Source: Acutalibacteraceae bacterium (GTDB taxonomy: Bacteria; Bacillota; Clostridia; Oscillospirales; Acutalibacteraceae). Taken from it: DNA of 64,000 nucleotides. Below, piece after piece: positions 28,770 to 61,837 of this stretch. Position numbers and translations under genes: made by a program. Position 1 is the first letter of the stretch, and every line of letters begins with the position of its first letter. The stretch is from contig JAZSQQ010000077.1 in the NCBI GenBank assembly GCA_045538055.1, positions 20,365-84,364 of the forward strand, read 5' to 3'. Under the pieces are notes generated by a model that did no database searches, had not been told where the DNA came from, and worked only from the letters and a program-made list of their open reading frames with translations.

Positions 28770-29096
28770 TCATATGGATTTCTCCTTAAAACCGTATAAG
28801 GTTTTGTTGATTTGGTCGATGACTTCAAGTAAATCTTTGCTGACATTATTACCGTTTTCGATACGCTTCAGTTCATTAAGTACGGCAGCAAGTTCCAGTT
28901 TAAGTGCCTTATATACCTTGGGATTTCCCTCGACAACAATTTCACGATCGGTGCACTTCCTGTAACAGTATTCCTGTTTGGAAAATCCTGAGAGAGCAAC
29001 AATGCGATTAATGGTTTCATATTCTTCGGGAGAGACTCTGAACCCTACGGTTATGGACCTGAATCGATTATGTTTATCTAAATTTTTAGCTGACAT
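28770..29096 (-). CDS. MobC-like ribbon-helix-helix relaxosome accessory protein
   Basis: 108 aa, MSAKNLDKHNRFRSITVGFRVSPEEYETINRIVALSGFSKQEY. A paralog of the product of 59660-59983. Overlaps the int stop. Confidence 0.65.
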   Translation of the reverse strand: MSAKNLDKHNRFRSITVGFRVSPEEYETINRIVALSGFSKQEYCYRKCTDREIVVEGNPKVYKALKLELAAVLNELKRIENGNNVSKDLLEVIDQINKTLYGFKEKSI

Positions 29097-30177
29097 TTTG
29101 CATTGTCTCCTTTCGGAAATTGTTTAGCTGATCTGCCATATCCGTTTGTGTAGACGGAAACAGATGAGCGTAATTATAAGTGATGTTGATGCTTTCGTGT
29201 CCTACACGTTCAGCAATCGCAACTGCCGAATATCCCATTTCTATTAAGAGAGAAATGTGACTATGTCTCAAATCATGGATACGGATACGCTTAATGCCTG
29301 CTTCATCTGCACCTCGTGTCATTTCACGATGCAAATAATTTTTTGATATATTAAAAATTCGATCATTCTTTTTAAGTCCATAAATTTTTGAAATATAAGT
29401 TTTAATTTCTTCAGCAAGAAAATCAGGCATTTTAATAACACGATTACTTTTTGTCGTTTTGGGGTCAGTAATAACATCTCGACCGTCTATGCGTTGATAG
29501 GATTTATTAATTGTAACTGTGCTATGTTCAAAATCGAAATCACCCGCCGTCAACGCTAACAATTCTCCTTCACGAATACCGCACCAATAAAGCATTTCAA
29601 AAGCATAGTATGATATCGGTTTATTCATCACAGCAAATGCGAATTTCTGATATTCCTCTTGTGTCCAAAACAACATCTCACGGTTTTTAGATTTACCCAT
29701 ATTACCAACCTTTGCTGCAGGGTTTTCTTTCAATCCATAGAACTTAACTGCGTGATTGAAAATTGCGCTAAGCTGATTGTGTAATGTTTTAAGGTATACC
29801 GGGGAGTAGGTTTGATGATTTTTGTTGCGAGCTTTAATCATTTCATTTTGCCAAGCGATAATATCCCTTGGCTGAATTTCATTTATTTTACGTTTACCGA
29901 AGTACGGCAGAATCTTCGTTCGAATAATATGCTCTTTAGTTTGCCAAGTATTTTCTTTAAGGCGAGTTTTCATATCCACCGTATAGGTTTCAATAAAGCT
30001 CGCGAAGGTCATACTGAGGTCAGCCTGACTCTTGTTCAAAAACTCACGCTCCCAAGCAAGTGCATCTCGCTTTGTAGGAAATCCTCTCTTGGTGCTTTGC
30101 TTTCGCTCTCCCTTCCAATCGGTTACTCGGTAGTAAACCATCCAGGTGTTTGTTTTTTCATCTTTGTAAACAGCCAT
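29086..30177 (-). CDS. int: Tyrosine site-specific integrase (element A)
   Basis: 363 aa. N-terminal arm-binding-type domain MAVYKDEKTNTWMVYYRVTDWKGERKQSTKRGF. Catalytic region HDLRHSHISLL...GHESINITYNYAHL. Confidence 0.9.
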   Translation of the reverse strand: MAVYKDEKTNTWMVYYRVTDWKGERKQSTKRGFPTKRDALAWEREFLNKSQADLSMTFASFIETYTVDMKTRLKENTWQTKEHIIRTKILPYFGKRKINEIQPRDIIAWQNEMIKARNKNHQTYSPVYLKTLHNQLSAIFNHAVKFYGLKENPAAKVGNMGKSKNREMLFWTQEEYQKFAFAVMNKPISYYAFEMLYWCGIREGELLALTAGDFDFEHSTVTINKSYQRIDGRDVITDPKTTKSNRVIKMPDFLAEEIKTYISKIYGLKKNDRIFNISKNYLHREMTRGADEAGIKRIRIHDLRHSHISLLIEMGYSAVAIAERVGHESINITYNYAHLFPSTQTDMADQLNNFRKETMQNVS

Positions 30178-30182
30178 TTATA

Positions 30183-30383
30183 TCACTTCCTTTCCTTATT
30201 TTTGGCTGCATCATAACATGTTTTTTCTAAAAAGAATTGTTTATTGACTTTGCCGGCCATTACGAAAAAGCCTTGTTCTTTTAATTCGGCGTTCATTTTT
30301 CGGATTACTTTATAAGCAAATGATTTTGAAATTTTGAGTGCTTGTGCAACATCGTCAGCAGTCATATAATAATCTTCAAACAT
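30183..30383 (-). CDS. xis: Excisionase-type small HTH DNA-binding protein (element A)
   Basis: 66 aa, MTADDVAQALKISKSFAYKVIRKMN. Lies immediately upstream of int, with an AAAGGAGA RBS. Confidence 0.7.
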   Translation of the reverse strand: MFEDYYMTADDVAQALKISKSFAYKVIRKMNAELKEQGFFVMAGKVNKQFFLEKTCYDAAKNKERK

Positions 30384-30416
30384 TGTACCATCTCCTTTCT
30401 TGATTTTTAATCACAT

Positions 30417-30547
30417 GACTTAACTTGATTTGTTTAGTGCATCTGTATTATACTAAACAAATTTGATTAAGTCAAGCGTGTTTTGAAAAAATATTAAACA
30501 AAAATGTTTATATTATATTGACTTAACTTAAACATTTGTGCTATACT
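30417..30547. promoter_or_regulatory. Divergent promoters with shared TTGACTTAA boxes (xis-int promoter and XRE promoter)
   Basis: Minus strand: TTGACT (30475-30470), 17-nt spacer, TATAAT (30452-30447). Plus strand: TTGACT (30518-30523), 18-nt spacer, TATACT (30542-30547). An imperfect inverted repeat (30417-30438 with 30452-30473) overlaps the minus-strand promoter. Confidence 0.6.
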
Positions 30548-30581
30548 ATCGCATATTGCATAAGCAAGGAGTGAAATTTCT

Positions 30582-31076
30582 ATGGCAATTGGTGAAAGAA
30601 TTCGATTTTTTCGAAAACTGAAAGGAATGACACAAAAGTTTCTCGGCGTTAAGGTTGGATTCCCGGAGAAAACTGCCGACATCCGCTTAGCTCAATATGA
30701 GTCCGGCACAAGAACACCTAAAGCAGATTTAACTGAAGCACTTGCCGATGCTTTGGGCATTTCTACTATGGCACTGAATGTTCCTGATATTGATACGGAT
30801 CTCGGCTTTATGCATACCCTCTTTGCATTAGAGGATATTTACGGCTTGAAGATCGACAAGCTCAATGACGAGGTTTGTATTCGCCTTGATAAAAACAGAG
30901 GAACATCTAACATTTCTTTGCTTGAGCGTTTTGCCGCTTGGCAGAAAGAAGCGGAGAAGTATCGCAACGGTGAAATCAGCAAAGAGGAATATGACCGTTG
31001 GCGTTATACATATCCCGAAGTAGAAGTACAGCGCACAAGGGATGCCCTTGATGCACTGCGAGATCAAGAGGGGTAA
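30582..31076 (+). CDS. XRE-family regulator of element A
   Basis: 164 aa, IRFFRKLKGMTQKFLGVKVGF...RLAQYESGTRTPK. Confidence 0.75.
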   Translation: MAIGERIRFFRKLKGMTQKFLGVKVGFPEKTADIRLAQYESGTRTPKADLTEALADALGISTMALNVPDIDTDLGFMHTLFALEDIYGLKIDKLNDEVCIRLDKNRGTSNISLLERFAAWQKEAEKYRNGEISKEEYDRWRYTYPEVEVQRTRDALDALRDQEG

Positions 31077-31087
31077 TTCAAAACAAA

Positions 31088-32176
31088 ATGGAAGATAAAG
31101 ATGCGTTGAATACAGCTTTAAAAGCGTTCTATGATGCCGAAGTTGAGCACCAGGAAAAGTTAAAGGAAAAATATCCTGATGATGTACCTAATACTGTGTG
31201 TAATCACGCTTTCATCCGTGGATATTCTTTAGAGAACAGTTTTGGACCTAAAGAAGGAGATTACAACTATTTTTGTCAGATAGGATTTGAAACCCTTTAC
31301 ATATGGACATATCAAAAGAACGTTAATTCTGCTTTGGTATCTGAAACCCAACTTGCAGTTAAAGAATTACCATATTGGAAAGCGGCAGCCAATCTAATAT
31401 GGCTCTCCCTGTCTTTTGCAAAATGTTTCGAGTGTGCAACGATAGACGATCTGCCCGATTATAAATGGATGTATTATTTTGATCCTTGTAAATCCACCAT
31501 TGACAACACTACTTTTTATAACTTATCGAGCATTGAGCAAAAATTTATGTCGACAGGAATCCATTTAAAACCAACGGAAATTGCTTCATTGGCATCGGTA
31601 ATTGAGTTACTCATACGAGATGATCAAGCATATACTGCACTTTCTCTTGTGTTTTCTGCCTTTTGCACTCACTCTTGTTGTCTAATCTGCGAAATGAGTA
31701 AGCATCCTTGGCATGACCATTTAGCTGAAGAACCCTCAATATGGCAACAAGCACAAATGTTGCCAAGCCTTGAAACAGCAGTTGTTCAATCATGCCGAGC
31801 TATTGAAGCTATAATTGGTGAACCACCAAATCAAAAAAAGCACGGAAAAGTATTTGCACATAAGCAGCACTGGAAAGACACAATTGGTATTGACCCCGAC
31901 GATATATTTGAAAAAGCAAATATGTCGTATTTAGATTTTTACTACAAACTTTTCTTCGACCTTCGAAACCCTTCTGCTCACAGTTACGGAAATATACACT
32001 ATGATTTGGCTCGTAAGCGAGCAGTTGAGTCTCAATGCTTTGCAGCGATAATTGTTCAAAAATACATTGATAAACATACTGTTGATAACGAAACAGCAAT
32101 TGATTCTCTAAAATTCAATAGAGAATTGCTTGATAAAGTATCAGAAACAATGTCAACCTGCATGACAAAAGAATAA
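31088..32176 (+). CDS. Hypothetical 362-aa protein with a possible HEPN-type Rx4H motif
   Basis: Good ORF directly downstream of the XRE gene. The motif FDLRNPSAHSYG (R-N-x-x-x-H) lies near the C-terminal third. No other recognisable domain. Confidence 0.5.
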   Translation: MEDKDALNTALKAFYDAEVEHQEKLKEKYPDDVPNTVCNHAFIRGYSLENSFGPKEGDYNYFCQIGFETLYIWTYQKNVNSALVSETQLAVKELPYWKAAANLIWLSLSFAKCFECATIDDLPDYKWMYYFDPCKSTIDNTTFYNLSSIEQKFMSTGIHLKPTEIASLASVIELLIRDDQAYTALSLVFSAFCTHSCCLICEMSKHPWHDHLAEEPSIWQQAQMLPSLETAVVQSCRAIEAIIGEPPNQKKHGKVFAHKQHWKDTIGIDPDDIFEKANMSYLDFYYKLFFDLRNPSAHSYGNIHYDLARKRAVESQCFAAIIVQKYIDKHTVDNETAIDSLKFNRELLDKVSETMSTCMTKE

Positions 32177-32179
32177 AAA

Positions 32180-32224
32180 AGAGCTAACAGACTTTGTAAC
32201 AAAAATCTGTTAGCTCTTTATTTA
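32180..32224 (+). terminator. Rho-independent terminator
   Basis: AGAGCTAACAGA ... TCTGTTAGCTCT followed by TTATTTAT. Confidence 0.7.
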
Positions 32225-32317
32225 TGAATAATCTGAAATTGTTGTCAAAACGTTGTCACGAGGCTTTTTGAAACCTCGAAAACCTAGTGTTTATGCGGGT
32301 TTTCAGCGTTTTTGGTA

Positions 32318-32329
32318 TTATTCCCACTC
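32318..32329. repeat. att core copy 1 (identical to the guaA 3' terminus)
   Basis: TTATTCCCACTC matches 61826-61837 at 12 of 12 positions. The upstream GGTATTA also resembles GGTTATTA at 61821. Confidence 0.75.
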
Positions 32330-32594
32330 ACTTAAGTTCGTTATTTTAAATTTTATGAAACCGCGTAAAATCAAGCTTTTTTAAAAGTCGGGACAGGGCA
32401 AAATGACCACTTTTGACCACTTGATACTGTACTTTCAGTATCACCGACACTTTTACCGGGCCGAAAACCAACCCCATCAGCCTGAAAATATGTATTTCAC
32501 GATTCCAAATGGATTGTACCACACAAAAATATAAATGTCAACACTTTAAAGTGATAAAGTACAATCTCTTAGTGTTTTGTTGTTATATCAGTTT
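32319..32594 (+). repeat. Copy 1 of a direct repeat of about 265 bp (element left arm)
   Basis: Aligns with 42968-43230. I count 4 mismatches in the first 165 nt or so, with more divergence after that. Contains TGATACTG (32422) and CAGTATCA (32436). Confidence 0.85.
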
Positions 32595-32770: not shown

Positions 32771-33133
32771 GTGACTGATAAAGAATTAAAAAGGTTAAGC
32801 CGACTTGAATTGCTGGAGCTTCTTCTGACAGAGACCCGTGAAAACGAAAGACTCAGAGAAGAACTTGAAAAAGCAAAACAGGAAAACAGCATAGAAAAAA
32901 GTGCGGTGCTCCTTAACGAAACTGCAAAGCAACTGGATGAAGCTTTGAAAAAAGTTTCTTCGATGAGCAACATACCGACTGATGCAGGCAGTACCGCTAA
33001 AAAGTCTTTCGCGGGACATAAGATTTTCTCAGGTAATAAACCGAAATTGCTTGATGTTTTTTCAAAAGATATATTCAAGTTAACTGCAAAAGACCGTAAG
33101 ATTAAAAGCCAAAAGAAAACAAAAGCGAAATGA
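32771..33133 (+). CDS. Coiled-coil, lysine-rich hypothetical protein
   Basis: 120-aa ORF with a GTG start. KELKRLSRLELLELLLTETRENERLREELEKAKQEN. The coding call is supported mainly by its position upstream of the signal peptidase. Confidence 0.4.
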   Translation: MTDKELKRLSRLELLELLLTETRENERLREELEKAKQENSIEKSAVLLNETAKQLDEALKKVSSMSNIPTDAGSTAKKSFAGHKIFSGNKPKLLDVFSKDIFKLTAKDRKIKSQKKTKAK

Positions 33134-33174
33134 TTACGATTCTTCTGGTATATTAACGGAGGACATTTTTGTAA

Positions 33175-33822
33175 ATGGCATTCAAAAGAAAGAAAAAAGA
33201 ACTTCAATTTCCCACGTCGATGCAAATCGAAAAAGCGATTGCTAAAGAGCAATACAGCCGTAAGTACAAGAAGGTGCTGAAAAGTACTCTTTCTTCGCTT
33301 ATTGTTGTGGCTGCTATCGCCGTGCTTATTGCAACGCTTGCTTTGCCTGTTCTTCAGATTCAGGGAAGCAGTATGGAACCGACGCTTAATGACGAAGAAA
33401 TTGTTGTTCTTATAAAAACACCAAATCTGAAAAGGGGACAGCTTTGTTGCTTCTCTTATCAGAATAAACTTCTTATAAAAAGAATAATCGGTGTACCGGG
33501 AGATACAATCCTCATTAACGAAAAAGGTTTTGTTTATGTTAATGATGAATTGCTGGACGAACCGTACATTCTTGACCGTGCTCTCGGTGAATGTGATATC
33601 GATTTTCCTTTTCATGTAACCGAAAATCACTACTTCATTCTCGGTGACCACCGTTCTACATCAATCGACAGCCGAAGCTCAGTTGTAGGACTTGTAAGCT
33701 CCGAACAGATTGTCGGCAGGATATTCTTCAGAATCTGGCCTTTTGAGAAGATGGGCGACATAGATTATGAAGAATATCAGGAAAATATCGAAAATCCTGA
33801 TGAACAGAAAACCCAGGAGTAA
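33175..33822 (+). CDS. Type I signal peptidase (S26), pilus-locus associated
   Basis: 215 aa. N-terminal TM segment, catalytic Ser box GSSMEPTL, Lys box LIKRIIGVPGD, and LGDHRSTSIDSR. Confidence 0.85.
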   Translation: MAFKRKKKELQFPTSMQIEKAIAKEQYSRKYKKVLKSTLSSLIVVAAIAVLIATLALPVLQIQGSSMEPTLNDEEIVVLIKTPNLKRGQLCCFSYQNKLLIKRIIGVPGDTILINEKGFVYVNDELLDEPYILDRALGECDIDFPFHVTENHYFILGDHRSTSIDSRSSVVGLVSSEQIVGRIFFRIWPFEKMGDIDYEEYQENIENPDEQKTQE

Positions 33823-33857
33823 ATTGCTGAAAAAATAACAGAAAGGGGGAAGCAATT

Positions 33858-36800
33858 ATGTCAGGTGTGAATCATGAATATCTCAAAGACCATAAGTTGT
33901 TCAGAGTGCGCAACAAAAGAATAGTTGCTTTGTTCCCTGTTATTGCTGTTATTGTTGCAATTGCAGTTTTCTGGTGTCTTAAGCTTGTCGGTATTACGAT
34001 TACGAGTGACGCATTGTGCGAGCTTAATGAGCATACTCATATCAGCAGCTGTTATTCGGGCGACGAGCTTGTCTGCCTTAAGCCTGAGCATACTCATACT
34101 GCAGAATGCTTCCCTGACAAGACAGTTGACACGGAAACAACAGCAGACTGGCTGAAAACCTTAGAACATATAACAATCACAAATAATCTTTCAGAAAATC
34201 TTGTTGCTGTTGCAACGTCGCAGGTCGGATACAGCGAAAGCGACCGCAACTATGAATACAATGCATTCGCTGAAAAGAATAATTACACCCGCTACGGTGA
34301 ATGGTACGGAAGTCCTTACGGTAACTGGAACACGATGTTTGTTTCTTTCTGTATCGGACACGCAAATATCAATAATTCAGATTTGTTGACAAGCGCTTCT
34401 GCAGAATCGATGAGACAGGCATGGCAGAAAAAGGCTGTTTATTCTTCGGCTGAAAGCTATGACGCTCAGAGAGGCGACGTTGTTTTCTTCGATACGGACG
34501 CTAACGGTAAGGCAGACCGTACGGGCATTGCAATTTACAAAAGTGACAAGCTTCTTATGGTTATTGAGGGCGACGTTGACGGTGAGGTAAAGAAGGTTAA
34601 TTACACCAAAACAGATACTGTTCTCGGCTACGGTAAGACAAGCAAACTTTATGTTGCAGAGCATATCACCTCGGTTGATAAAGGCGAGTCAGATATCGGT
34701 ACCGTCAAGCCGACACTTGTGGGTAAGCTTAAGTATTACATCCCAAACAGTGCAACTCATACTACATACAATCTCAGACATTCAGTTCCGCAAAGTGTTT
34801 ACGACAGTGAACCGCTCATTATGATGGCTGCAGCAAATCAGGATATTACATACACCTCACAGCTTGAAGATGAAGTTGTTAATGCTGTGTTTAAAGACCT
34901 GAACGGCAATGTGCTTGGCAGCGGTTCAACTGTTCATATAGGTCAGTCTTACGTTGTTTCGCTTGAATTCAGCGAAATCAACAAGGGCAGTCAGTGGATT
35001 CAGTTTGAGCACAATGATGACGGATATCTAACATATCATATTCCGTCAAACCTCCATTGCGATGAGTTTGACAGCTGGCATAAAATTTCAGCAAAAACCG
35101 AAGCAGGAACTGTTGAAGATGTTGGTGAATATTATGTTGACGGCAACGGATTGTTGAAAGTTAAATTTTATGAAGATGCCAATGGTGTCAACTTCGTTGA
35201 TAAATACGCTAACGTTGACTTCACTATCGATTTCAGTGCAACGGTTGATGCAACACAGTCAGGCGATTCTACAGAAATAAAATTCAACGACGATATTAAA
35301 ATTAACCTCGAAATCGATGGCGAAGCAGGTATTATTGTTACAAAAACTCACGGTGAATACAACGAAGACGATAACACTCTTGAATACACTATCAGGGTCG
35401 ATGCAACGCACGGTCTTGTTAAGGATCTTGTTATCGATGACCAGATATGGGAAAACCATTATGCATTAAGAGACACAATCGTGGTAACAGATCTTGACGG
35501 TAATCTTATCGTTCCGCAGCCGACAGTCAGCGATCATCCTGATCAGTACGCGAACTCAGGCTTCAGGCTTTCCGGTTTTCCTGATTTTTCAGCGGGAGAA
35601 GGTTTCCTTATCAAATACAAATCAACTCCGTATGAAAATCTTCTTTCCAACGATTTCGTTGATATGTGGAACGGTATCGACGCTAACGGTAAAAATCCGA
35701 ATGGCGGAAATGTTTACGACTGGGGTGAAGACTGGATAAAGGTTGAGTTTACAAGGATTGAAAAAGACGGTAAAATGGTCGTTCTTACTGACGCTCAGGG
35801 CAACAAAATTCCTGTCATCGAATGGGGCGTTGGTATCAGAAAAACAGCCGAAAACCTTCAGGGTACTGTTATTATCGATACCCTCGGTGAAGGCCTGGCA
35901 TATTACACAGACCAACCGATTACGATCAAACGTTATGATGAATGGGGTAACAGACTCCCCGATACATACCTTAGTTGGGATCAGGTAACTATCACAAATA
36001 CTAACGGTAAAACTTCAATGCAGTTTGCCCTTCCTTCGGGTTATGCATTTGATCTTATTTACTACACCACTTTCCCACCGTTGGATGAAGGTGAAACAAA
36101 TACCCATACAAACAGAGTTGAAGCAATTATCAACACAAGACCTGAGGGTACTGAAGGTACGGCAGACGTTATCGGCTTCGTGCCTCACGTTGAGAAGCAC
36201 GCAAGCGGTAATGACGGTGAATATATCAACTTCGAAATTAAAGCGGAAGTTTCCGGTGCGATCAAGGATTGGGGTCATTTTTTCATCACTGACCTTGCAG
36301 CTTTCTGGGGATACAACAACGCAGAAGGATATCTTTACGTTCAGAACCTTCCCGAAAATCTTGTTGTAACCGCAACAACCGAAAGCGGACAGGTTATAAC
36401 ATTCACACCTTATGTAGAAGGCGGTCCGACAGAAAATACATATATTCTTGTTGCTCCTGCAGAGGGTAATCAGCACCACAGCTTCAATATTCTGTTTAAC
36501 ACAGCGGACACGAATCCTGACACAATGTTCGAATCATCAAAGTGGCTTTTCCACGAAGATGCAACACTCAAGGTTACCTACAGACTTCCGTTTGATGCTA
36601 AAACAGGTACTGAATGGATCGGTGAGCTTACAGGTGATAAAACTCTCGAAGATGTCCTTCTTGAAGGCTACAAAATGTCAAACGAAGTTTATATGAACTT
36701 TACACAGGCTATTCAGGGCGTTGCAAGTTCACAGTACGAATACTCCCCGATGATAACCAAAAAAGGTTATGTCAATGATAACGGAACGATTGATTACAAT

Positions 36801-38195: not shown

Positions 38196-38205
38196 GATCT
38201 CAAGG

Positions 38206-38480: not shown

Positions 38481-38543
38481 TAAAACCGATTGCGGCGGAA
38501 AAAACAAAAATTGCAAATTAAATTATAGAAAGGAAGTAAGATT

Positions 38544-40085: not shown

Positions 40086-40300
40086 AAGGATAAAGAATCG
40101 GACGATTCTGAGGAATCAGAAGATTCTGATACTTCCGAAGAATCCTAAGATTCCCGCAGCAGCTGCTGCACAGTAAAAACTCAACCCCTGCCGGCCTTGT
40201 GCCGGTGGGGGCGAATGAAAAAACATTTAAAATTCTGACCGTTGTTATCGAATTCTCGGTGGTAACGTTGAAAATTTTAAAATGAATCAAGAGATAAGCT

Positions 40301-49413: not shown

Positions 49414-49418
49414 TATAA

Positions 49419-52447: not shown

Positions 52448-52525
52448 TTTGTGTCCTCCTTGTTATGACTGCTACAAGTGTTTTGTAGCTACTTTTAGTT
52501 TAGTCTTTTACATTTCAACTCATTA

Positions 52526-53383: not shown

Positions 53384-53502
53384 TACGTTCCTCCTTTAAC
53401 AGAAACTTATCTTTTAAATTGATATTTTTTTATGTGATTTCGGTTTACATAAAACAACCTGTTAAATGTTCTAAATTTAAGAATTATTTAATCGTTTTAG
53501 AT

Positions 53503-55350: not shown

Positions 55351-55368
55351 ATTTTTACTCCTTACATT

Positions 55369-55575
55369 TTACTCTTCCGCAACAAATTCCATAATATCAT
55401 CTACACCGCAATCGAGGGCTTTGCAGATTTTGCCGAGGGTTTCGACGGTAACGTTTTCTCCTTTGCTCATTTTTGTAATTGTGTAGTTGCTGATATCGGC
55501 GACCTTTGCAAGGTCCTTTTTCTTCATATCGTGATCAATCAGAAGCTTCCATAATTTCTTATAACTTACAGACAT
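55369..55575 (-). CDS. XRE-family HTH regulator preceding the GmrSD-like gene
   Basis: 68 aa, LIDHDMKKKDLAKVADISNYTITKMSKGENVTVETLGKICKAL. Confidence 0.8.
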   Translation of the reverse strand: MSVSYKKLWKLLIDHDMKKKDLAKVADISNYTITKMSKGENVTVETLGKICKALDCGVDDIMEFVAEE

Positions 55576-56434: not shown

Positions 56435-56788
56435 TTAAGCGTAAATCAATTCTCTGTTCACAACTTCGGTTGCACGTTGGTGGATGTTATTCATTCGCTC
56501 AACCCATTCGAGCTGATTGTTTTCTTTGAGCTCCTCGGTCACGTTTTCTGCTTTTGCGATTTGTGTTACGAGTGTATCGAAAAGTTCTCCTGCCTGCTTG
56601 TCAATCTCTGCGAGATGACTCCATAGTTTACCTGCCGAGAAGAGCTGAGTGAAAAGCACCTGTTTGTTTTTCTGCAGATATAAACCGTGGGCTCGTCCCC
56701 ATTTACCGAGTCTGATTTCCTTCGCTTCGGTTGGTAAGGTGAGATTCGGGATTTTATAATCTCCGACCTGTCTGTAAGTGATGTTCAT
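56435..56788 (-). CDS. tnpV: TnpV-family protein
   Basis: 117 aa. MNITYRQVGDYKIPNLTLP...WGRAHGLYLQKNK...LAEIDKQA...EWVERMNNIHQRATEVVNRELIYA matches the TnpV pattern known from clostridial transposons. Confidence 0.7.
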   Translation of the reverse strand: MNITYRQVGDYKIPNLTLPTEAKEIRLGKWGRAHGLYLQKNKQVLFTQLFSAGKLWSHLAEIDKQAGELFDTLVTQIAKAENVTEELKENNQLEWVERMNNIHQRATEVVNRELIYA

Positions 56789-56800
56789 AATTTTCTCCTT

Positions 56801-57067
56801 TCATTTTACAAATACATCGTGTGTGAATTTTGCTCCGAGTCTGAATCCTGAAATAAAACTGTCGGCAATACTTATGCTGAGAAATTCATTGTATGAATTT
56901 GTGTATTGCTGAAACATTTTCTTTTCTTCTTCGGATAGCTTTTCTCTGAACTCATCTTCGTTTTTTACGAGTGAGTTCAGTTCCTTTTTAAGGGAAGAGC
57001 CGAGCTCAGAACTGAGTTCCTGCGGCTCTATGTTGCCGTAATAAAATTCTTCAATAAAGCTTTTCAT
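56801..57067 (-). CDS. Small hypothetical protein in the mobile-element backbone
   Basis: 88-aa ORF tightly packed between mob and tnpV. Confidence 0.5.
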   Translation of the reverse strand: MKSFIEEFYYGNIEPQELSSELGSSLKKELNSLVKNEDEFREKLSEEEKKMFQQYTNSYNEFLSISIADSFISGFRLGAKFTHDVFVK

Positions 57068-57073
57068 ACCGAC

Positions 57074-58267
57074 CTACCTTTCTTCTCTGTCTTTGTGTCT
57101 TTGCCTTGGTGTGGGTTTTGTTCTGAACGGTTTTTTGTAACGTGCCTGACGATTGTTCCATTCTATTTCCTTTGCTTGTGAAACAAGTGTGTTTATCTGC
57201 TCATCTCCGAAAATTTTGCGAAGCAGTTTGTGGTCCTGAACCTCTCTGTTGAGTTCATCGTTGCGGGATAACAGTGAACGATTTTCTTTTCTTAATCTTT
57301 CTGTTCGCTCTTCTGCAAGTCTTTCGTAATACTTTCGGTCTTTTACTCTGTCCTGAAGATGAATACAAAGCAGTACCGCAGCTTTCGCAATTCCGATAAT
57401 TTTTTTGAAAAGCGGTTCAACAATTTTTGTTTTGTAAGCCTTTGCAGTCATAAGGGGAGAGGGATCCGGCAATTTGAATTCTTCCTCTTCATCAAAATTC
57501 CTGTGTATTACGTCAATATCAATTTCAAATTGAGTCAGACTTTCTACCTGTTCTCTGAGCAGGTCAACTTTTATATTCAGTTCCTGTGCTTCGTCTGTGA
57601 GCTTTTCGACTTCCTCGGAACGCATTTTCTTTTCGTAATCATAAACCGATAAGTGTTTTTCGTGAGTGCCTTTGTGCTCCCATTCGATACCGTAACGCTC
57701 CATAACTTTTGAAAGCTCTTCCTTTTCTGACTCAACCCAAAGGCTCCATTCGGTTTCGTGTTTTGAACTTCCGACAAAACCCTGATTCGCTAAAGCTTGT
57801 TTAAGAGATACCCTTGTGTCAAGTCCGCGATTGCTTTTTGTTGTGAATGGTACAAAGTCAATGTGCAGATGCGGCGTCGCTTCATCCATATGAAGGTGAG
57901 CAGAGAAAACTTTCAGGTACGGATTGCGTTTCTGAAAATCCTGATAATACTCATCAAGTATTTTTTCAGCGAGTTCACCGTCGGAAGTTTTTGCATTCAT
58001 GTTGTCACAGTTACCGACCTGAATTATGATTTCGTGAAAAGTTTTTTCCTGTCTGCCTGAACGGATTTTCTCATAGTAGTTTTCAATTTTTCTGTCAGCA
58101 CGTTTTTGCTTTTGGTTATATCTTCCGAGTGCATCGTCGAATAGCTCGTGATACACATCTTTGATTTTCTCATTGCAGTATTCGGTGTTCAGATGAGTTC
58201 TTTCGGGATCTGTGTTTTTTGCATTGAACTCACGGCTGTTATGATTGACCGAACCTTTTCCGACCAT
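57074..58267 (-). CDS. mob: MobV-family (Mob_Pre) relaxase
   Basis: 397 aa. HLHMDEATPHLHIDFVPF (the HxDE...PHxH motif) with a coiled-coil C-terminal half. Confidence 0.85.
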   Translation of the reverse strand: MVGKGSVNHNSREFNAKNTDPERTHLNTEYCNEKIKDVYHELFDDALGRYNQKQKRADRKIENYYEKIRSGRQEKTFHEIIIQVGNCDNMNAKTSDGELAEKILDEYYQDFQKRNPYLKVFSAHLHMDEATPHLHIDFVPFTTKSNRGLDTRVSLKQALANQGFVGSSKHETEWSLWVESEKEELSKVMERYGIEWEHKGTHEKHLSVYDYEKKMRSEEVEKLTDEAQELNIKVDLLREQVESLTQFEIDIDVIHRNFDEEEEFKLPDPSPLMTAKAYKTKIVEPLFKKIIGIAKAAVLLCIHLQDRVKDRKYYERLAEERTERLRKENRSLLSRNDELNREVQDHKLLRKIFGDEQINTLVSQAKEIEWNNRQARYKKPFRTKPTPRQRHKDREER

Positions 58268-58439
58268 AATACTTATTGTCCGTCTTATACAATCACTGTC
58301 CTTCTTCTTTATAATCTACAAACCTTTTTTGTTCTGTTACTCTTGTCAAGAGTAACGCAAAAGCACTTTTGACACACCTTGTATATCAAAAGGTGCTGTT
58401 GCGCTCTCCGAGGGTTCGGAACTGTACACCAAACGGCTG

Positions 58440-58530
58440 TTGATGCACAGTTCCCCGTGTCAACCGTGACGACTGTGACAACCTTGAGAGGGGCCCCTAT
58501 AGGTTGTCACGGTTGACGCGGTTGTCACGC
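58440..58530. other. Candidate oriT: nested palindrome plus GTTGTCAC / GTTGAC repeats upstream of mob
   Basis: GTGACAACCT-TGAG-AGGGGCCCCT-ATA-AGGTTGTCAC. Outer 10-bp arms enclose a 10-bp self-complementary core. Flanked by CGTGTCAACCGTGAC and GGTTGACGCGGTTGTCACGC. Confidence 0.5.
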
Positions 58531-59667
58531 TTGCAGTACGAATTTTATTCTTCTGCCTGCGTGAGTGCGTCTGCTTTCGTAGAGAATGTTGTACTCATTA
58601 AGCAGTCGCCCGGCGGTGACATTAAGCTTCATTCCTAACTGAATGGGCGTAATGTCCATTGGTAAAAAATCTCTGAAGTCGGAAATACTTCCCTCCCAAT
58701 CAGGATTTTCTACTGTGATTTTTTCTGCAATAACTTCGAGCAAAGGGTCGGGTTTTTCTTTCCAAAGTTCAGTTTCAACTTTATCAAGTTCCCATATAAG
58801 CCGCTCTTCGTTTCTTACAAGGAAAAGTTTTTGGTCAGGTTGGTCTCTTCCTGAGACAGCAAGTGTTGCAGTTTTTGCAGTTCGCTTTTCTTTATACATA
58901 ACAAATGCTCCGTCAGCTGCACCGAATAAACCGTGAGTACCTGATATCATTGCGAAGATATCTTCTGCTTTTTCTTTTCTTGTGTGATGAACAAGCAGAA
59001 AACAAATTCCGTATTTGTCCGAAAAACTTTTGAGCTTGGATGCAACATCATAATCATTTGCATAAGAACATGTTTCGGATAAGTCCTCTCTGACTTTTTG
59101 CAAAGTGTCAATAATGATAAGACTTGTATCAGGATTGTTACATAAAAACTTTTCAAGTTGGTCAAAGAGTCCGTTACTTAAGTTCTTTGCCGAAATAGAG
59201 AAAAGCAATTTATCTGTTCCGTCAGTTCCGAACATTCGGTAAAGTCTTTTCTGCAGTCTTGCATAATCATCTTCGAGTGCAAGATAAAGCACCTTACCTT
59301 GTCGTACTTCGTTTCCCCATAACGGTTTACCTGTGCTGATATGATAAGCAAGCTGTGCCATTAAAAAACTTTTTCCCACCTTAGGGGCACCTACGAAAAG
59401 GTAGGTGCCGGGAAGAAGAAGGTCGTCAATGATCGGAGGTTTGCCGAGATAAGCTGAATCATAAAGTTGATTCATTGTTACCGTTTCCATATATGACGGG
59501 TCAAGACTCTTATGGATTTCTCTTTGCATCTCTTCGATTTTTTCTTTATAGCTATTGATGTTTGTTTTACTTTCGGGTATACTATTGTCAGTGTTTTGAT
59601 TTGACTGTCCGTCATCTGCGCCAACAGATGAGAAGAGGACGGTCATTTCTTTTTTTATTTCATTCAT
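58525..59667 (-). CDS. AAA_25/RepA-like P-loop ATPase (element replication or primase-helicase-type protein)
   Basis: 380 aa. Walker A FVGAPKVGKSF, Walker B-like LIIIDTLQK, and YLALEDD. Confidence 0.7.
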   Translation of the reverse strand: MNEIKKEMTVLFSSVGADDGQSNQNTDNSIPESKTNINSYKEKIEEMQREIHKSLDPSYMETVTMNQLYDSAYLGKPPIIDDLLLPGTYLFVGAPKVGKSFLMAQLAYHISTGKPLWGNEVRQGKVLYLALEDDYARLQKRLYRMFGTDGTDKLLFSISAKNLSNGLFDQLEKFLCNNPDTSLIIIDTLQKVREDLSETCSYANDYDVASKLKSFSDKYGICFLLVHHTRKEKAEDIFAMISGTHGLFGAADGAFVMYKEKRTAKTATLAVSGRDQPDQKLFLVRNEERLIWELDKVETELWKEKPDPLLEVIAEKITVENPDWEGSISDFRDFLPMDITPIQLGMKLNVTAGRLLNEYNILYESRRTHAGRRIKFVLQA

Positions 59668-59983
59668 TTAATTCTCCTTTCATTTCGCGAAGTGTCTCGG
59701 TGATGAGCCTGATAATCTCAAGCATCTCATCGGACACTTCGTTTTTGTTTTTTAATTCAGTGAGTATATCTGCAAGATTGTTTTTCAAAGCCTTGAACAC
59801 TTTCGGGTTACCGCCGTGAACTACAATGTCTTGCTTCATACAACGGCGGTAGCAATATTCCTGTTTGCTGAGTCCCGATATCGCAACGACTCTGTTTATC
59901 TGTTCGTTCTCTTCGGGTGAGACTCTGAATCCGACAGTTATACTGCGGAAGCGGTTGTGCCGATCTAAATTTTTTGCTGACAT
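59660..59983 (-). CDS. MobC-like ribbon-helix-helix relaxosome accessory protein (element B)
   Basis: The start is set at MSAKNLDRHNRFRSITVGFRVSPEE by analogy with 28770-29096. The 158-aa ORF-track version runs into int. Confidence 0.65.
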   Translation of the reverse strand: MSAKNLDRHNRFRSITVGFRVSPEENEQINRVVAISGLSKQEYCYRRCMKQDIVVHGGNPKVFKALKNNLADILTELKNKNEVSDEMLEIIRLITETLREMKGELNE

Positions 59984-59984
59984 T

Positions 59985-61052
59985 TTATTCACGCTCCAGG
60001 CTGAGTTTTTGTGCAATCTCCGTTTGCTTTGACGGGAACAGGTGAGCATAGCGGTAAGTGATGTCGATGCTTTCGTGACCGACTCTGTCCGCAATCGCAA
60101 GTGCAGGCAATCCGATATCGATGAGAAGTGACACATGCGAATGTCTCAGATCGTGAATACGGATTTTCTTCACTCCCGTTTCGGCACAGCCTCTTCGCAT
60201 CTCGCGATGAAGATAACCTTTGGTTATGAGAAAAATTCTGTCATCCTTTTTCGGCTTGTAAAACCCGCTGAAGTATCTTTGCATTTCATCACAGATGAAG
60301 TCAGGCATTGTGACTGTGCGTATGCTCTTTTTTGTTTTCGGGTCAGTAATAACATCACGTCCGTCGATACGCTGATATGACTTGTTGATTCGCACGGTCT
60401 GATTTTCAAAATCAAAATCACCGATAGTCAGTGCGAGCAACTCACCGAGACGGATGCCGCACCAATAGAGCATTTCAAATGCGAAGAAAGATACAGGCTT
60501 GTCCATCATTGCTTCTGAAAACTTAAGATATTCTGCCTTTGTCCAGAAAAGCATTTCGCGGTGTTTTTCTCTGCCCATATTACCTGCCTTTGCTGCAGGG
60601 TTTGATGGTAGATCGTAATATCTCACTGCGTGATTGAAAATTGCACTGAGCTGATTGTGAATTGTTTTAAGATAACCGGGCGAATACGGTTGGTCATTTT
60701 CATCGCGGTAGCACATCAGCTCCTTCTGCCACGCGATGACATCGGCAACCTTGATTTCACACATCCTCTTCAGACGGAAGTAGGGGAGTATTTTTGTTTC
60801 AATAACATTTGCTTTCATAATCCACGTGCTTTCCCTGAGCTTAATCTCAAGGTCACTTTTGTAGACGTCATAAAACTCTGCAAAGGTCATTGTCAGATCG
60901 CCTGTGTGCTTGTTGATGAATGTGGTCTCCCACGCTATTGCATCACGGCGTGTTTTGAAACCGCGTTTGAGCTTTCGGTCATTTTCGCCTTTCCAGTTCG
61001 TGAAGTAGACCGAAACATACCACGTACCGTTTTTGTCTTTGTAAGCTGGCAT
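59985..61052 (-). CDS. int: Tyrosine site-specific integrase (element B)
   Basis: 355 aa. MPAYKDKNGTWYVSVYFTNWKGE (arm-binding-type N-terminus). HDLRHSHVSLL...GHESIDITYRYAHL. A paralog of the integrase at 29086-30177. Confidence 0.9.
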   Translation of the reverse strand: MPAYKDKNGTWYVSVYFTNWKGENDRKLKRGFKTRRDAIAWETTFINKHTGDLTMTFAEFYDVYKSDLEIKLRESTWIMKANVIETKILPYFRLKRMCEIKVADVIAWQKELMCYRDENDQPYSPGYLKTIHNQLSAIFNHAVRYYDLPSNPAAKAGNMGREKHREMLFWTKAEYLKFSEAMMDKPVSFFAFEMLYWCGIRLGELLALTIGDFDFENQTVRINKSYQRIDGRDVITDPKTKKSIRTVTMPDFICDEMQRYFSGFYKPKKDDRIFLITKGYLHREMRRGCAETGVKKIRIHDLRHSHVSLLIDIGLPALAIADRVGHESIDITYRYAHLFPSKQTEIAQKLSLERE

Positions 61053-61069
61053 TTAATTTCTCCTTTCTT

Positions 61070-61252
61070 TTAATTTGCCGACATACCGTAAATCTGCTCT
61101 GAAAGATAACGACGGCTTACTTTGCCCTTGAATACATAGTATCCCTTGGCTTCAAGTTCCTTGTTAAACTGCTCGATAATCTGATAAGCAAGAGTCAGGG
61201 AGATACCGAGCTCTTCGCTTACCTGCTTTGCTGTCATAAGAACGCTTGGCAT
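61070..61252 (-). CDS. xis: Excisionase-type small HTH protein (element B)
   Basis: Start at the ATG at 61252 after an AAAGGAGGA RBS. MPSVLMTAKQVSEELGISLTLAYQIIEQFN. Confidence 0.7.
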   Translation of the reverse strand: MPSVLMTAKQVSEELGISLTLAYQIIEQFNKELEAKGYYVFKGKVSRRYLSEQIYGMSAN

Positions 61253-61825
61253 AAGCTTTTCCTCCTTTCCTGTAAAATTTATTACAAGTCGGTTGCCCGA
61301 CGTGAAATACGAAGAAACCCCTTCACTTATTAACGGACATTTTTTAGTCAAAACAGGACCCCTTTTTTTGAAAAAATTTTTTACCCTCTATTATGTACGC
61401 ACTGGGAGAGACCAAATTCGGCATCATTTTCCAAAAAGTTCACAAAAATTTCAAAAAAGTCCTTGAAAAACCCCTCTATTTACTTATTGCTGTCTTTTTT
61501 CAGAATTTATAACCAAAAATTTGATTTTGCTGAAAAATGCTTTTATTTTACCTATCTACTTATCTGTTGCTGACTGTTTTGAAAATTTATAACTAAAACT
61601 TTAAAAATTTATTTCAGAGGAAAAATACGATCGGATTTACAGTATCACTCTTCTGATTTTGGACATAAAAAATACCCCTCTCGGATGAACTAAGTGTTCA
61701 AACGAGAGAGGTTATCTCTGTATGATTTTATTGTGAACAAGCCGTATTCAGTATCATTTGAGTATCAGACGGCTTTCCCGAAGTCCTGAAACCCTTGATA
61801 AATAAGGACTTTTTCGCTTCGGTTA

Positions 61826-61837
61826 TTATTCCCACTC
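61826..61837. repeat. att core copy 3, which is the authentic guaA 3' terminus
   Basis: TTATTCCCACTC encodes ...E-W-E-stop on the minus strand. Confidence 0.8.

What the first reader, a model, noticed from the sequence alone, without database searches (positions are those of the whole stretch)
28770..61837. Three integrative elements stacked in tandem at the 3' end of guaA (accretion array)
The last 12 nt of guaA including the stop (plus strand TTATTCCCACTC, 61826-61837) recur exactly at 32318-32329 and as ATTCCCACTC at 42968-42977. Immediately left of the copies at 32318 and 61826 sit paralogous mobC-int-xis modules. The two integrases (363 and 355 aa) are roughly 60% identical by eye, with the same arm-binding N-terminus and the same HDLRHSH...GH...Y catalytic region. 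Immediately right of the copies at 32318 and 42968 lies the same arm of about 265 bp. This is the footprint of repeated site-specific integration into one attB, each event regenerating the guaA end: element A, then the pilus island, then element B, then guaA. Integration into the 3' end of guaA is a known specificity for some tyrosine-integrase elements of Firmicutes. A three-unit array with different cargo in each unit is still worth documenting.
Basis: partly seen in the sequence, partly recalled or inferred. Interest (0 to 1): 0.7.

Follow-up and report, generated by a model that had tools for sequence, protein, structure and literature searches.

The report
Mobile-element pile-up behind the guaA gene
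Mobile DNA elements that all insert into the last 12 bases of the guaA gene have piled up behind it: one complete mobilizable element carrying anti-phage genes, an integrase-less pilus island, and a truncated third element. This is a clear but ordinary example of a known process, seen here in little-studied gut bacteria.

Summary
The 10-mer ATTCCCACTC occurs three times (0.08 expected), the 12-mer of the guaA end twice, and a ~255-bp arm (89% identical) follows two copies. The two integrases are 63% identical.

This is a site-specific accretion array, but it holds one complete element, not three.

- **Unit B (42978-61825)** is a complete integrative mobilizable element. It has xis, int, mobC, an AAA_25 protein and a MobV relaxase, plus defence cargo.
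- **The pilus unit (32330-42967)** has no integrase and no proximal arm. In two other genomes the pilus island lies between two core+arm repeats, with different left flanks and no element A. It therefore behaves as a hitch-hiking cis-mobilizable unit.
- **"Element A" (28770-32317)** is a 3.5-kb remnant. Homology to complete A-type elements stops at the mobC stop codon. The AAA_25 gene, relaxase, TnpV and the distal att site are gone.

Of 49 species with at least 3 kb downstream of guaA, 32 look empty, 6 carry a related integrase and 11 carry an integrase-less unit ending in a second core. Within one species the site holds different occupants.

Integration at the guaA 3' end and IME/CIME accretion are already described. 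This is a new member of a known kind.

The parts
28770..29096 (-). mobC_A (NikA-like, 108 aa). This is the last surviving gene of the truncated A-type element. Homology to complete A-type elements ends at its stop codon.
   Evidence: Pfam NikA-like, E 9e-12. It is 67% identical to mobC_B. Homology with L057 and L119 stops at window 28766, and in those loci an AAA_25 gene follows.
29086..30177 (-). intA, an apparently intact tyrosine integrase (363 aa)
   Evidence: Arm-DNA-bind_4, Phage_int_SAM_3 and Phage_integrase domains. 63% identical to IntB. 80-89% identical homologues lie downstream of guaA in L057 and a 363-aa integrase gene in L119.
30183..30383 (-). xisA (66 aa), a putative excisionase
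   Evidence: Weak HTH_17 match. 35% identical to xisB. 92% identical homologue in L057.
30582..32176 (+). A-type HTH regulator (30582-31076) and a 362-aa ORF of unknown function (31088-32176), which is variable cargo
   Evidence: HTH_3 match. HTH homologues of 73-94% identity lie between guaA and xis in L018, L022, L057 and L087. The 362-aa ORF has no hit in Pfam, NCBIfam or PADLOC, and other genes take its place in L057 and L119.
32168..32317 (.). A-type proximal (integrase-side) att arm, including a terminator hairpin at 32175-32222
   Evidence: 94-99% identical to the sequence that directly follows the guaA stop in L057, L069, L086, L087, L119 and L120; L037 is 93% identical and L022 83%.
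32318..32329 (.). Core copy 3, TTATTCCCACTC. It joins the A proximal arm to arm 1.
32330..32586 (.). Arm 1, the distal-type att arm at the left end of the pilus unit. It holds the TGATACTG-N6-CAGTATCA pair at 32422-32443.
   Evidence: 89-90% identical to arm 2. The same arm flanks the pilus island in L106 and L107. The motif is enriched, 8 copies against 2.06 expected, and 6 of the 8 lie in att arms.
32771..42899 (+). Sortase-dependent pilus island. It comprises a 120-aa conserved ORF, signal peptidase I (33175-33822), a 1445-aa tip adhesin (33858-38195), the backbone pilin (38544-40085), a sortase (40301-41293), a minor pilin (41308-42300) and a second sortase (42321-42899). It has no integrase, excisionase or relaxase.
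   Evidence: Pfam Peptidase_S26, SpaA, GramPos_pilinBB, LPXTG anchor, Sortase and Cna_B. The same gene set is present in L106 (98% nt identity) and L107 (87%).
42901..42938 (.). Terminator-like hairpin at the right end of the pilus unit
   Evidence: Inverted repeat. Conserved in L091, L106 and L107.
42966..42977 (.). Core copy 2, TCATTCCCACTC, an internal relic with one mismatch
   Evidence: The equivalent site is TCATTCCCACTC in L106, canonical TTATTCCCACTC in L107 and TTACTCCCACTC in L091.
42978..43227 (.). Arm 2, inferred to be the distal att arm of element B. It holds the motif pair at 43070-43091.
   Evidence: Assigning it to B is an inference; no distal end of any other B-type element was reached.
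43255..55575 (-). Cargo of element B, a defence island. It comprises a PDC-S28 candidate helicase (43255-45759), a type I restriction-modification system with HsdS (46466-47896), HsdM (47893-49413), an Mrr-like nuclease (49419-50048) and HsdR (50066-52447), a GmrSD type IV nuclease (53503-55350) and an HTH_26 regulator (55369-55575).
   Evidence: Pfam. PADLOC PDC-S28 at E 3e-294 and GmrSD-type (Orf5, HEC-06) hits. The cargo differs in otherwise 95-97% identical B-type elements.
56435..59983 (-). Mobilization and maintenance module of B: TnpV (56435-56788), DUF6809 (56801-57067), MobV/Mob_Pre relaxase (57074-58267), an inverted-repeat-rich intergenic region (58418-58529) that is a candidate oriT or iteron set, an AAA_25 protein (58525-59667) and mobC_B (59660-59983)
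   Evidence: Pfam and NCBIfam. Inverted repeats. 95-97% nt identity to L001, L002, L004 and L006; L003 matches at the same level apart from a deletion of the relaxase gene.
59985..61252 (-). intB (59985-61052, 355 aa) and xisB (61070-61252, 60 aa, ICEBs1-Xis-like)
   Evidence: Pfam. NCBIfam ICEBs1 excisionase, E 2e-11, below the curated cutoff. An integrase of exactly this sequence is carried on at least 23 public contigs.
61253..61825 (.). B-type proximal att arm. It holds CAGTATCA at 61640 and 61749 (and a TTGAGTATCA variant at 61758) and a hairpin that terminates guaA.
   Evidence: The motif keeps its position (+81/83 and +190/193 from the core) in B elements and in relatives whose integrase is only 78% identical.
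61826..61837 (.). Core copy 1, TTATTCCCACTC. It is the last four codons (I-E-W-E is ...GAGTGGGAA) plus the stop codon of guaA.
   Evidence: The 12-mer is exact in 59 of 84 guaA ends across loci L002-L090 (75 of them from the 80 species genomes), and the other 25 differ by one or two bases.
61826..62827 (-). guaA, the target gene. It encodes a 333-aa GMP-synthase ATP-pyrophosphatase and dimerisation domain only, and has its own promoter and ribosome-binding site.
   Evidence: Pfam GMP_synt_C. NCBIfam guaA_Cterm at 441 bits; it matches positions 197-512 of the full-length model. Sequence read directly. The same 333-aa form occurs in 80 Oscillospirales-type genomes.

Best explanation
Window 28770-61837 is a site-specific accretion array at the 3' end of guaA. 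It was built by a family of lambda-type tyrosine integrases whose crossover lies within the 12 bp GAGTGGGAATAA, the last codons and stop codon of guaA. Every integration rebuilds the end of the gene.

Reading away from guaA, the array holds three things.

1. Element B (18,860 bp from core to core) is a complete integrative mobilizable element. It consists of a proximal arm, xis, int, mobC, an AAA_25 protein, a MobV relaxase, DUF6809, TnpV, defence cargo and a distal arm.
2. The pilus unit (10,648 bp) consists of a distal-type arm, a sortase-pilus operon and a relic core. It has no recombination or mobilization genes and no proximal arm.
3. The last 3.5 kb of an A-type element survive: proximal arm, cargo, HTH regulator, xis, int and mobC. 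Its AAA_25 gene, relaxase, TnpV, remaining cargo and distal att site were lost in a deletion or replacement that ends at the mobC stop codon.

Inferred mechanism. IntB and XisB can recombine core 1 (attR: B proximal arm plus core) with core 2 (attL: core plus arm 2). That releases B alone. They can also recombine core 1 with core 3 (attL: core plus arm 1). That releases a 29.5-kb pilus+B composite. The pilus island is therefore a cis-mobilizable passenger. It most likely cannot excise alone, because its right end has no proximal arm. Once excised, B would be transferred by its MobV relaxase using the mating pore of a co-resident conjugative element. Element A can no longer excise.

Shown: the anatomy, the shared att system, the truncation of A, and the polymorphism of the site in related genomes. 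Inferred: that arm 2 belongs to B, that CAGTATCA is the arm-type binding site of IntB, which excision products form, and the order in which the elements arrived.
For: Cores and arms. The 10-mer occurs 3 times against 0.08 expected. The arms are 89% identical, and their homology begins exactly at the core in seven copies from four assemblies.

Gene content..

Site specificity.
- B-type proximal arms follow the guaA stop directly in L002-L006, L011, L108-L113 and L117, in at least three different upstream backgrounds.
- A-type proximal arms follow it directly in L022, L037, L057, L069, L086, L087, L119 and L120.

Tandems elsewhere. In L001, L007, L009 and L114 a B-type element is joined through the same 12-mer to sequence that is not guaA. 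In L001 and L114 that sequence is another TnpV-bearing element.

Truncation of A. Homology with L057 and L119 ends at window 28766. Complete A-type elements continue with AAA_25, Mob_Pre and TnpV. No further core (up to 2 mismatches) or arm lies to the left in the window.

Pilus unit.
- In L106 (98% identical) and L107 (87%) the island lies between two core+arm repeats, with other left flanks and no element A.
- The left flank in L107 is a radical-SAM gene. Its homologues lie 1.5-3.7 kb downstream of guaA in L021, L035 and L060, with further homologues downstream in L045 and L074.
- L091 keeps the junction of island, core and arm at only 73-83% island identity.
- In the window, L106 and L107 a different gene on the opposite strand to the pilus operon ends 9-28 bp beyond the right-hand arm. 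That is the pattern expected for the variable-cargo end of an element.

Shared arm motif. CAGTATCA occurs 8 times against 2.06 expected. Six copies lie in arm 1, arm 2 and the B proximal arm. The positions are conserved in relatives whose integrase is 78% identical.

Site polymorphism. Of 49 species loci with at least 3 kb downstream, 32 have no integrase and no second core, 6 have a related integrase and 11 have no integrase but a second core. Loci carrying the same guaA protein hold an A-type element, a third type, or a decayed element.
Against: - No distal end of any other B-type element was reached, because the fetch limit is 10 kb either side of the looked-up gene. That arm 2 is B's own distal arm is therefore inferred, not observed.
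- The part of the L106 contig to the right of the pilus unit (19491-34344) could not be fetched. No close IntB or guaA homologue listed in the searches had a longest contig of 34,344 bp. The prediction that an element and guaA follow there is untested.
- Core 2 carries a mismatch, which could hinder excision of B alone.
- There is no direct evidence of excision, circular forms or transfer.
- The native chromosomal flank of this organism was not identified. An att site for A beyond the window start cannot be strictly excluded.
Confidence: 0.75

Rival explanations
1. Three separate, self-sufficient integrative elements (A, the pilus island, B) each integrated in turn into the regenerated guaA end.
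For: There are three core copies and two paralogous mobC-int-xis modules. A-type and B-type elements each target guaA on their own elsewhere.
Against: The pilus unit encodes no integrase, excisionase or relaxase and has no proximal arm. A lacks the AAA_25 gene, relaxase, TnpV and any left att site. In the window, L106, L107 and L091 the pilus unit is always followed by a right-hand arm and never directly by guaA.
Confidence: 0.08
2. The two core+arm copies are terminal direct repeats of an independent pilus cassette and have nothing to do with element B. On this view B ends without that arm, and the cassette moved here by another route, such as homologous recombination between repeats.
For: In L106 and L107 the island carries core+arm on both sides. 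No integrase is visible in the fetched DNA, up to about 0.7 kb beyond the right-hand arm. The arm was found only next to pilus islands among 123 loci.
Against: A circle carrying one core+arm yields a second arm on integration only if its target already had that arm. The CAGTATCA arm motif is shared with B-type proximal arms at conserved positions. The repeat begins exactly at the guaA 12-mer. The L107 array sits at the locus downstream of guaA. Distal ends of B-type elements were simply out of fetch range, so not seeing the arm there says little.
Confidence: 0.12
3. The internal cores and arms came from a local segmental duplication or an assembly artefact, without integrase activity.
For: Long direct repeats can arise by duplication, and assemblers can collapse or misjoin repeats.
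Against: The arms are only 89% identical and have indels, and the DNA between and beyond them is unrelated. Repeat homology starts exactly at the 12-mer target of a family of guaA-specific integrases. The same double-arm structure occurs in independent assemblies with different flanks.
Confidence: 0.03

Closest known systems
Tandem accretion of IMEs and CIMEs at the 3' end of a housekeeping gene. Examples are the ICESt1/ICESt3-CIME arrays of Streptococcus thermophilus and the IME1-IME2 or CIME-IME tandems of streptococci (Pavlovic 2004 and Bellanger 2011 as cited in PMC5357655; review PMC5704250).
   Same: Tyrosine integrases have different sequences but the same target. [quoted passage not shown] Decayed elements lie in tandem with a functional one. 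Cis-mobilization of an integrase-less unit bounded by att sites is predicted. 63% integrase identity falls within the 21-69% reported for elements in accretion.
   Different: The host clade is uncultured gut Oscillospirales-type Clostridia, judged from the record titles. The target is guaA; the streptococcal IME tandems reported were in rpsI, rpmG and rplL. The integrase-less unit keeps only the distal arm and a bare core, whereas a textbook CIME keeps both attL and attR.
Elements specific for the guaA 3' end: Tn5801 and related islands of Staphylococcus and Enterococcus (11-bp direct repeats, PMC4844618), streptococcal ICE_SmiB6_guaA and the Tyr_3 IMEs (PMC4701971, PMC5357655), ATE-1, GIsul2 and the Brucella IncP island (PMC5704250)
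   Same: A tyrosine integrase, insertion at the extreme 3' end of guaA, a short direct repeat made of the end of the gene, and the integrase gene next to guaA.
   Different: Whether IntA and IntB are related to those integrases was not tested. The target here is a 333-aa synthetase-only guaA. The elements carry a MobV/AAA_25/NikA/TnpV module with defence or pilus cargo, not Tn916-type conjugation genes or resistance genes.
Tn4451/Tn4453-type mobilizable transposons of clostridia (TnpV and a Mob_Pre-type relaxase, TnpZ)
   Same: A TnpV homologue and a Mob_Pre/MobV relaxase are encoded together.
   Different: Tn4451 uses a serine recombinase and inserts at many sites (table in PMC5704250). These elements use a site-specific tyrosine integrase with an excisionase.

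Membership tests
Integrative and mobilizable element (IME): unit B | Encodes its own site-specific integrase, here with an excisionase | tested here: met
   intB has the arm-binding, SAM-like and catalytic domains. xisB resembles ICEBs1 Xis at E 2e-11, below the curated cutoff.
Integrative and mobilizable element (IME): unit B | Bounded by att sites that share a direct repeat with the target | tested here: met
   Core 1 at 61826-61837 and core 2 at 42966-42977 match at 11 of 12 positions. The proximal arm is confirmed in many loci. The distal arm is inferred.
Integrative and mobilizable element (IME): unit B | Carries a relaxase and/or oriT but no conjugative pore (no VirB4 or type IV secretion genes) | tested here: met
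   A MobV/Mob_Pre relaxase and a NikA-like MobC are present. No VirB4, VirD4 or TcpA domain was found in any ORF between 42978 and 61825 that was scanned.
Integrative and mobilizable element (IME): unit B | Excises and is mobilized in trans by a conjugative element | not testable with these tools
   The only support is indirect. An identical integrase and a module of 95-97% identity lie behind guaA in different genomic backgrounds.
Cis-mobilizable element (CIME): pilus unit | Has no integration or transfer genes | tested here: met
   It holds only a signal peptidase, pilins, sortases and a 120-aa ORF.
Cis-mobilizable element (CIME): pilus unit | Retains functional attL and attR | tested here: inconclusive
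   The left end has a core and a full distal-type arm. The right end has only a core with one mismatch after a terminator, and no proximal arm with CAGTATCA sites. It can be carried out with B from core 3 to core 1, but probably cannot leave alone.
Integrative and mobilizable element (IME): 'element A' | Two att sites and a mobilization module | tested here: not met
   There is no left core or arm in the window. The AAA_25, Mob_Pre and TnpV genes present in complete A-type elements are absent, and homology ends at 28766. It is a decayed element.
Site-specific accretion array | Two or more units in tandem, separated by copies of the same att core, at a target that is empty or differently occupied in relatives | tested here: met
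   There are three cores. Among relatives the site is empty, singly occupied, decayed or holds a tandem.
Tn5801 / streptococcal Tyr_3 family of guaA-specific integrases | Integrase sequence falls within that family | not tested
   No reference sequence was available in the tools used. Only the target gene is shared.

The most novel reading that the evidence does not exclude
The sortase-pilus island may be a long-lived passenger that spreads among gut Oscillospirales only as a composite with guaA-specific, defence-carrying elements. The composite would excise from the outer core to the guaA core. An adhesion organelle and an anti-phage arsenal would then travel as one 30-kb unit, and the internal relic core would be free to decay. 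The relic already differs between lineages: TCATTCCCACTC, TTACTCCCACTC and canonical TTATTCCCACTC.
Probability: 0.35. Interest if true: 0.45.

Novelty: new member of a known kind. Interest (0 to 1): 0.3.

Why it matters
The window shows that the guaA 3' end is a busy and highly polymorphic landing pad in an abundant but mostly uncultured group of gut Clostridia. At least three related integrase types use it. Their cargo turns over quickly (restriction-modification systems, GmrSD, a PDC-S28 candidate), and integrase-less units are frequent. The window also gives a concrete, testable case of a host-colonisation trait, a sortase-dependent pilus, positioned to be moved by a mobilizable element that itself depends on a conjugative helper.

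For annotation, the 12-mer GAGTGGGAATAA plus the A-type, B-type and distal arms are ready markers for delimiting such islands in metagenome-assembled genomes. Conceptually nothing here departs from the established accretion and cis-mobilization model.

Tried and rejected
- Exact-protein look-ups found nothing on record for guaA (both start codons), IntA, the 1364-aa STAND protein, the backbone pilin and the PDC-S28 protein.
- A scan of viral contigs for the core/arm junction found nothing. IntB relatives in viral contigs were at most 59% identical and were not pursued.
- The first metagenome scan, with a 28-nt core/arm pattern, found nothing. The second, with the 24-nt motif region, gave one contig, L091.
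- One look-up was wasted on P0121, which is the window's own IntB sequence.
- I searched guaA and IntB homologues hoping to recover the unfetched half of the L106 contig. No listed hit had a longest contig of 34,344 bp.
- I looked for the native downstream flank of guaA in the window's left 28 kb. None of the window's left-hand proteins has a homologue in the 80 species loci, apart from one weak LytTR hit. The flanks of L106 and L107 have no match in the window. The left boundary of the array in this genome therefore stays undefined beyond the truncation at 28766.
- There are no tRNA genes and no Rfam matches in the window. A tRNA-type att site or a known RNA in the arms is excluded.
- I considered that guaA might be a truncated pseudogene. 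I rejected this because the 333-aa form has its own promoter and ribosome-binding site and is the standard form in 80 related genomes.

Full report
**Observation**

The sequence features are real. TTATTCCCACTC is exact at 32318-32329 and at 61826-61837, and TCATTCCCACTC lies at 42966-42977. The shared 10-mer occurs three times against 0.08 expected, and none of 100 shuffles reached three. The copy at 61826 is the end of a minus-strand ORF whose product ends ...TGTIEWE*. That ORF is a GMP-synthase C-terminal-domain protein.

To the right of the copies at 32318 and 42966 lies a 254-267-bp repeat that is 89-90% identical. The two integrases are 63% identical over 352 residues. Both have arm-binding, SAM-like and catalytic domains. 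The mobC products are 67% identical and the xis products 35%.

Two details need correcting:
- In element A, an HTH gene and a 362-aa ORF separate xis from the core.
- guaA is a 333-aa synthetase-only protein with its own -35/-10 promoter and AGGAGG ribosome-binding site. It matches positions 197-512 of the full-length model. The same 333-aa form is found in 80 genomes labelled Acutalibacteraceae, Oscillospiraceae, Faecousia, Clostridia and similar.

**Anatomy**

Unit B (42978-61825) reads as follows, going away from guaA:
- a 573-bp non-coding proximal arm;
- xis (60 aa, ICEBs1-Xis-like) and int;
- a NikA-like MobC, an AAA_25 protein, a region rich in inverted repeats, a MobV/Mob_Pre relaxase, DUF6809 and TnpV;
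- cargo: an HTH regulator, GmrSD, a type I restriction-modification system with an Mrr-like nuclease, and a PDC-S28 candidate defence helicase;
- arm 2.

None of the ORFs scanned in this unit matched a conjugative-pore or coupling-protein family, so B is an integrative mobilizable element.

The middle unit (32330-42967) consists of arm 1, a 120-aa ORF, a signal peptidase, a 1445-aa tip adhesin, the backbone pilin, a sortase, a minor pilin, a second sortase, a terminator hairpin, 27 bp and core 2. It has no integrase, excisionase, relaxase or proximal arm.

"Element A" (28770-32317) consists of mobC, int, xis, the HTH gene, the 362-aa ORF and a 150-bp proximal arm.

**Site specificity, from related sequences**

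An integrase with exactly the IntB sequence is carried on at least 23 public contigs. A variant of 99-100% identity is on 18 more.
- In L002-L006, L011, L108-L113 and L117 the B-type proximal arm follows GAGTGGGAATAA of a 333-aa guaA directly. At least three different upstream backgrounds are represented.
- In L001, L007, L009 and L114 the same 12-mer joins the B-type arm to sequence that is not guaA. In L001 and L114 that sequence is another TnpV-bearing element, so these are tandems.
- The A-type proximal arm (TACCAAAAACGCTGAAAACCCGCATAAACACT...) follows the guaA stop directly in L022, L037, L057, L069, L086, L087, L119 and L120.

Both integrase types are therefore specific for the guaA end. 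The segment of identity between element and target is at most about 12 bp. The 12-mer is exact in 59 of 84 guaA ends across loci L002-L090 (75 of them from the 80 species genomes); the other 25 differ by one or two bases.

**Element A is a stump**

DNA homology between the window and the A-type elements of L057 and L119 runs from the core through mobC. It stops at window 28766. L057 and L119 continue with AAA_25, and L119 then has Mob_Pre, TnpV and cargo. In the window a short unrelated stretch follows, then a hairpin, then a convergent 1364-aa STAND NTPase gene in 30% G+C DNA.

No further core (up to two mismatches) and no arm lies to the left in the window. Such decay is common. L037 and L069 keep only the A-type arm and some cargo. 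L118 keeps a relaxase gene and TnpV but no integrase.

**The pilus unit**

The arm motif region retrieved one metagenome contig, L091. There a pilus island only 73-83% identical ends in the same way: a hairpin, then TTACTCCCACTC, then the arm.

A homologue search with the signal peptidase led to two MAG contigs:
- In L106 the island is 98% identical. It lies between two core+arm copies. ABC-transporter genes are on its left, and a DUF4238 gene on the opposite strand to the pilus operon begins 20 bp after the right-hand arm.
- In L107 the island is 87% identical and is again between two core+arm copies. A radical-SAM gene is on its left, and a methyltransferase gene on the opposite strand begins 9 bp after the right-hand arm.

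Neither locus has element A. Homologues of that radical-SAM gene lie 1.5-3.7 kb downstream of guaA in L021, L035 and L060, with further homologues downstream in L045 and L074. The L107 array therefore sits at the locus downstream of guaA and abuts native flank.

An alignment of seven arm copies shows near-invariance from the core for about 245 bp. Homology begins exactly at the core. The left-hand copies have three different flanks, and three of the four right-hand copies share the island's end, which has diverged in L091.

**Which element owns the arms**

CAGTATCA occurs 8 times in the window against 2.06 expected, and no shuffle reached 8. Six copies lie in att regions: an inverted pair in each arm, and two direct copies plus one variant in the B proximal arm. 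In proximal arms the motif keeps its position (+81/83 and +190/193 from the core). This holds even in elements whose integrase is only 78% identical and whose arm sequence is otherwise different. I read it as the arm-type binding site of the IntB family, which is an inference.

The recombination logic points the same way. A circle carrying one core+arm, on integrating, gives a structure with an arm to the right of both cores only if its target already had that arm. The right-hand arm must therefore be the distal end of the neighbouring element. In the window, L106 and L107 a different opposite-strand cargo gene abuts that arm. This fits the highly variable cargo end seen in B-type elements.

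The weak point is that the 10-kb fetch limit never reached the distal end of another B-type element. The right half of the L106 contig could not be recovered either.

**Mechanism and history**

The best reading is the standard accretion model (PMC5704250 and PMC5357655). Elements with related integrases enter the same attB, or the attL or attR of a resident element. Older units decay.

Core-to-core distances are 18,860 bp for B, 10,648 bp for the pilus unit and 29,508 bp for both together. Canonical attL x attR excision is possible for B alone, although core 2 has one mismatch. It is also possible for the pilus+B composite, whose two cores are identical. The pilus unit alone lacks a proximal arm, and A lacks an attL.

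The junction of island, core and arm recurs at 73-98% identity with different outer flanks, and the relic core has decayed differently in different lineages. This fits the pilus unit travelling with a right-hand element as a composite. Vertical inheritance followed by flank turnover is not excluded.

The order of arrival of A relative to the composite cannot be decided.

**Population picture**

Of 49 species-level loci with at least 3 kb downstream of guaA:
- 32 have neither a related integrase nor a second core;
- 6 have a related integrase;
- 11 have no integrase but a second core 1.1-4.8 kb downstream.

Six contigs encode one identical guaA protein, 98% identical to the window's, and three of them share upstream synteny. 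They hold an A-type element (L119, L120), a third type with a 354-aa integrase (L121, L122), or a decayed element followed by chromosomal genes (L118).

**Comparison with what is known**

Insertion at the guaA 3' end is documented for Tn5801-like islands, for streptococcal ICEs and Tyr_3 IMEs, and for ATE-1, GIsul2 and a Brucella island. Tandem IME/CIME accretion and cis-mobilization are also established. What is new is modest:
- the host clade;
- the synthetase-only guaA as the target;
- the combination of MobV, AAA_25, NikA and TnpV with defence cargo;
- a pilus island as the integrase-less passenger, which keeps only half of a canonical att pair.

**Verdict**

This is a real and well-delimited accretion array, and a new member of a known kind. 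Interest is 0.3.

Noticed in passing
window 61826-63000: guaA encodes only the ATP-pyrophosphatase and dimerisation half of GMP synthase (333 aa). It has its own promoter, and no glutamine amidotransferase domain lies upstream. The same split form is standard in 80 related gut Clostridia genomes, so the amidotransferase partner must be encoded elsewhere.
   Followed up: partly
window 63040-63160: A G+C-rich palindromic stretch lies between the guaA promoter and a divergent GNAT gene (63196-63861). In one frame it reads ...QSLRDSFPSRGSLG.... It looks like an intergenic repeat element. Synteny with close relatives breaks about 125 bp upstream of the guaA start.
   Followed up: no
window 20879-28275: A low-G+C (30%) block directly left of the truncated element A holds a sigma-70-like gene, two unknown ORFs, a RelA/SpoT-domain protein (23161-24000) and a 1364-aa STAND NTPase. 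The first 233 residues of the NTPase match PADLOC Avs4 (E 9e-34). This may be a defence island, and it may be what replaced the rest of element A.
   Followed up: partly
window 16691-20442: An agr-like quorum-sensing module: a GHKL histidine kinase, a LytTR response regulator, HTH regulators and AgrB.
   Followed up: no
window 1-16487: Very large minus-strand surface proteins. One ORF of at least 1740 aa runs off the window start. Another is a 2141-aa subtilase with BspA-type leucine-rich repeats.
   Followed up: no
window 58418-58529 and 32241-32258: The gap between the AAA_25 and MobV genes of B is packed with inverted and direct GTTGTCAC/GTGACAAC repeats, which are candidates for an oriT or for iterons. 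The heptamer GTTGTCA also occurs twice, 11 bp apart, in the proximal arm of element A. A one-mismatch relative, TGACCAC, occurs twice in arms 1 and 2.
   Followed up: no
L032, L042, L045, L064 (0.6-2.4 kb downstream of guaA): Very small integrase-less units are bounded by two GAGTGGGAATAA-type cores (one copy in L042 has a mismatch). They share a conserved distal arm...GACCTAAATTCACTCGATATAATGCTAATTTAAGC. They look like miniature cis-mobilizable elements at the same site.
   Followed up: no
L018 10941-11002 and 13275-13336: The last 62 or so nt of guaA are duplicated 2.3 kb downstream, ahead of an A-like element. The duplicated target segment is much longer than the 12-bp core.
   Followed up: no
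L003, L109, L110, L111: Several otherwise near-identical B-type elements lack the MobV relaxase gene, so AAA_25 is followed directly by DUF6809. They would depend on a relaxase supplied in trans.
   Followed up: no
L107 3955-4113; L001 4812-4957; L114 4990-5148: A 150-bp sequence inside the left flank of L107 is 73% identical to the distal arms of the elements that precede B-type elements in L001 and L114. It may be a relic att arm of yet another element type.
   Followed up: no
alignment A1 columns 170-200 (window arm 1 and arm 2, L106, L107, L091): The arms are mosaic. Two sequence variants of a 30-bp stretch are distributed without regard to left or right position; for example, both L106 arms carry the 'left' variant. 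This suggests gene conversion or recombination between arm copies.
   Followed up: no
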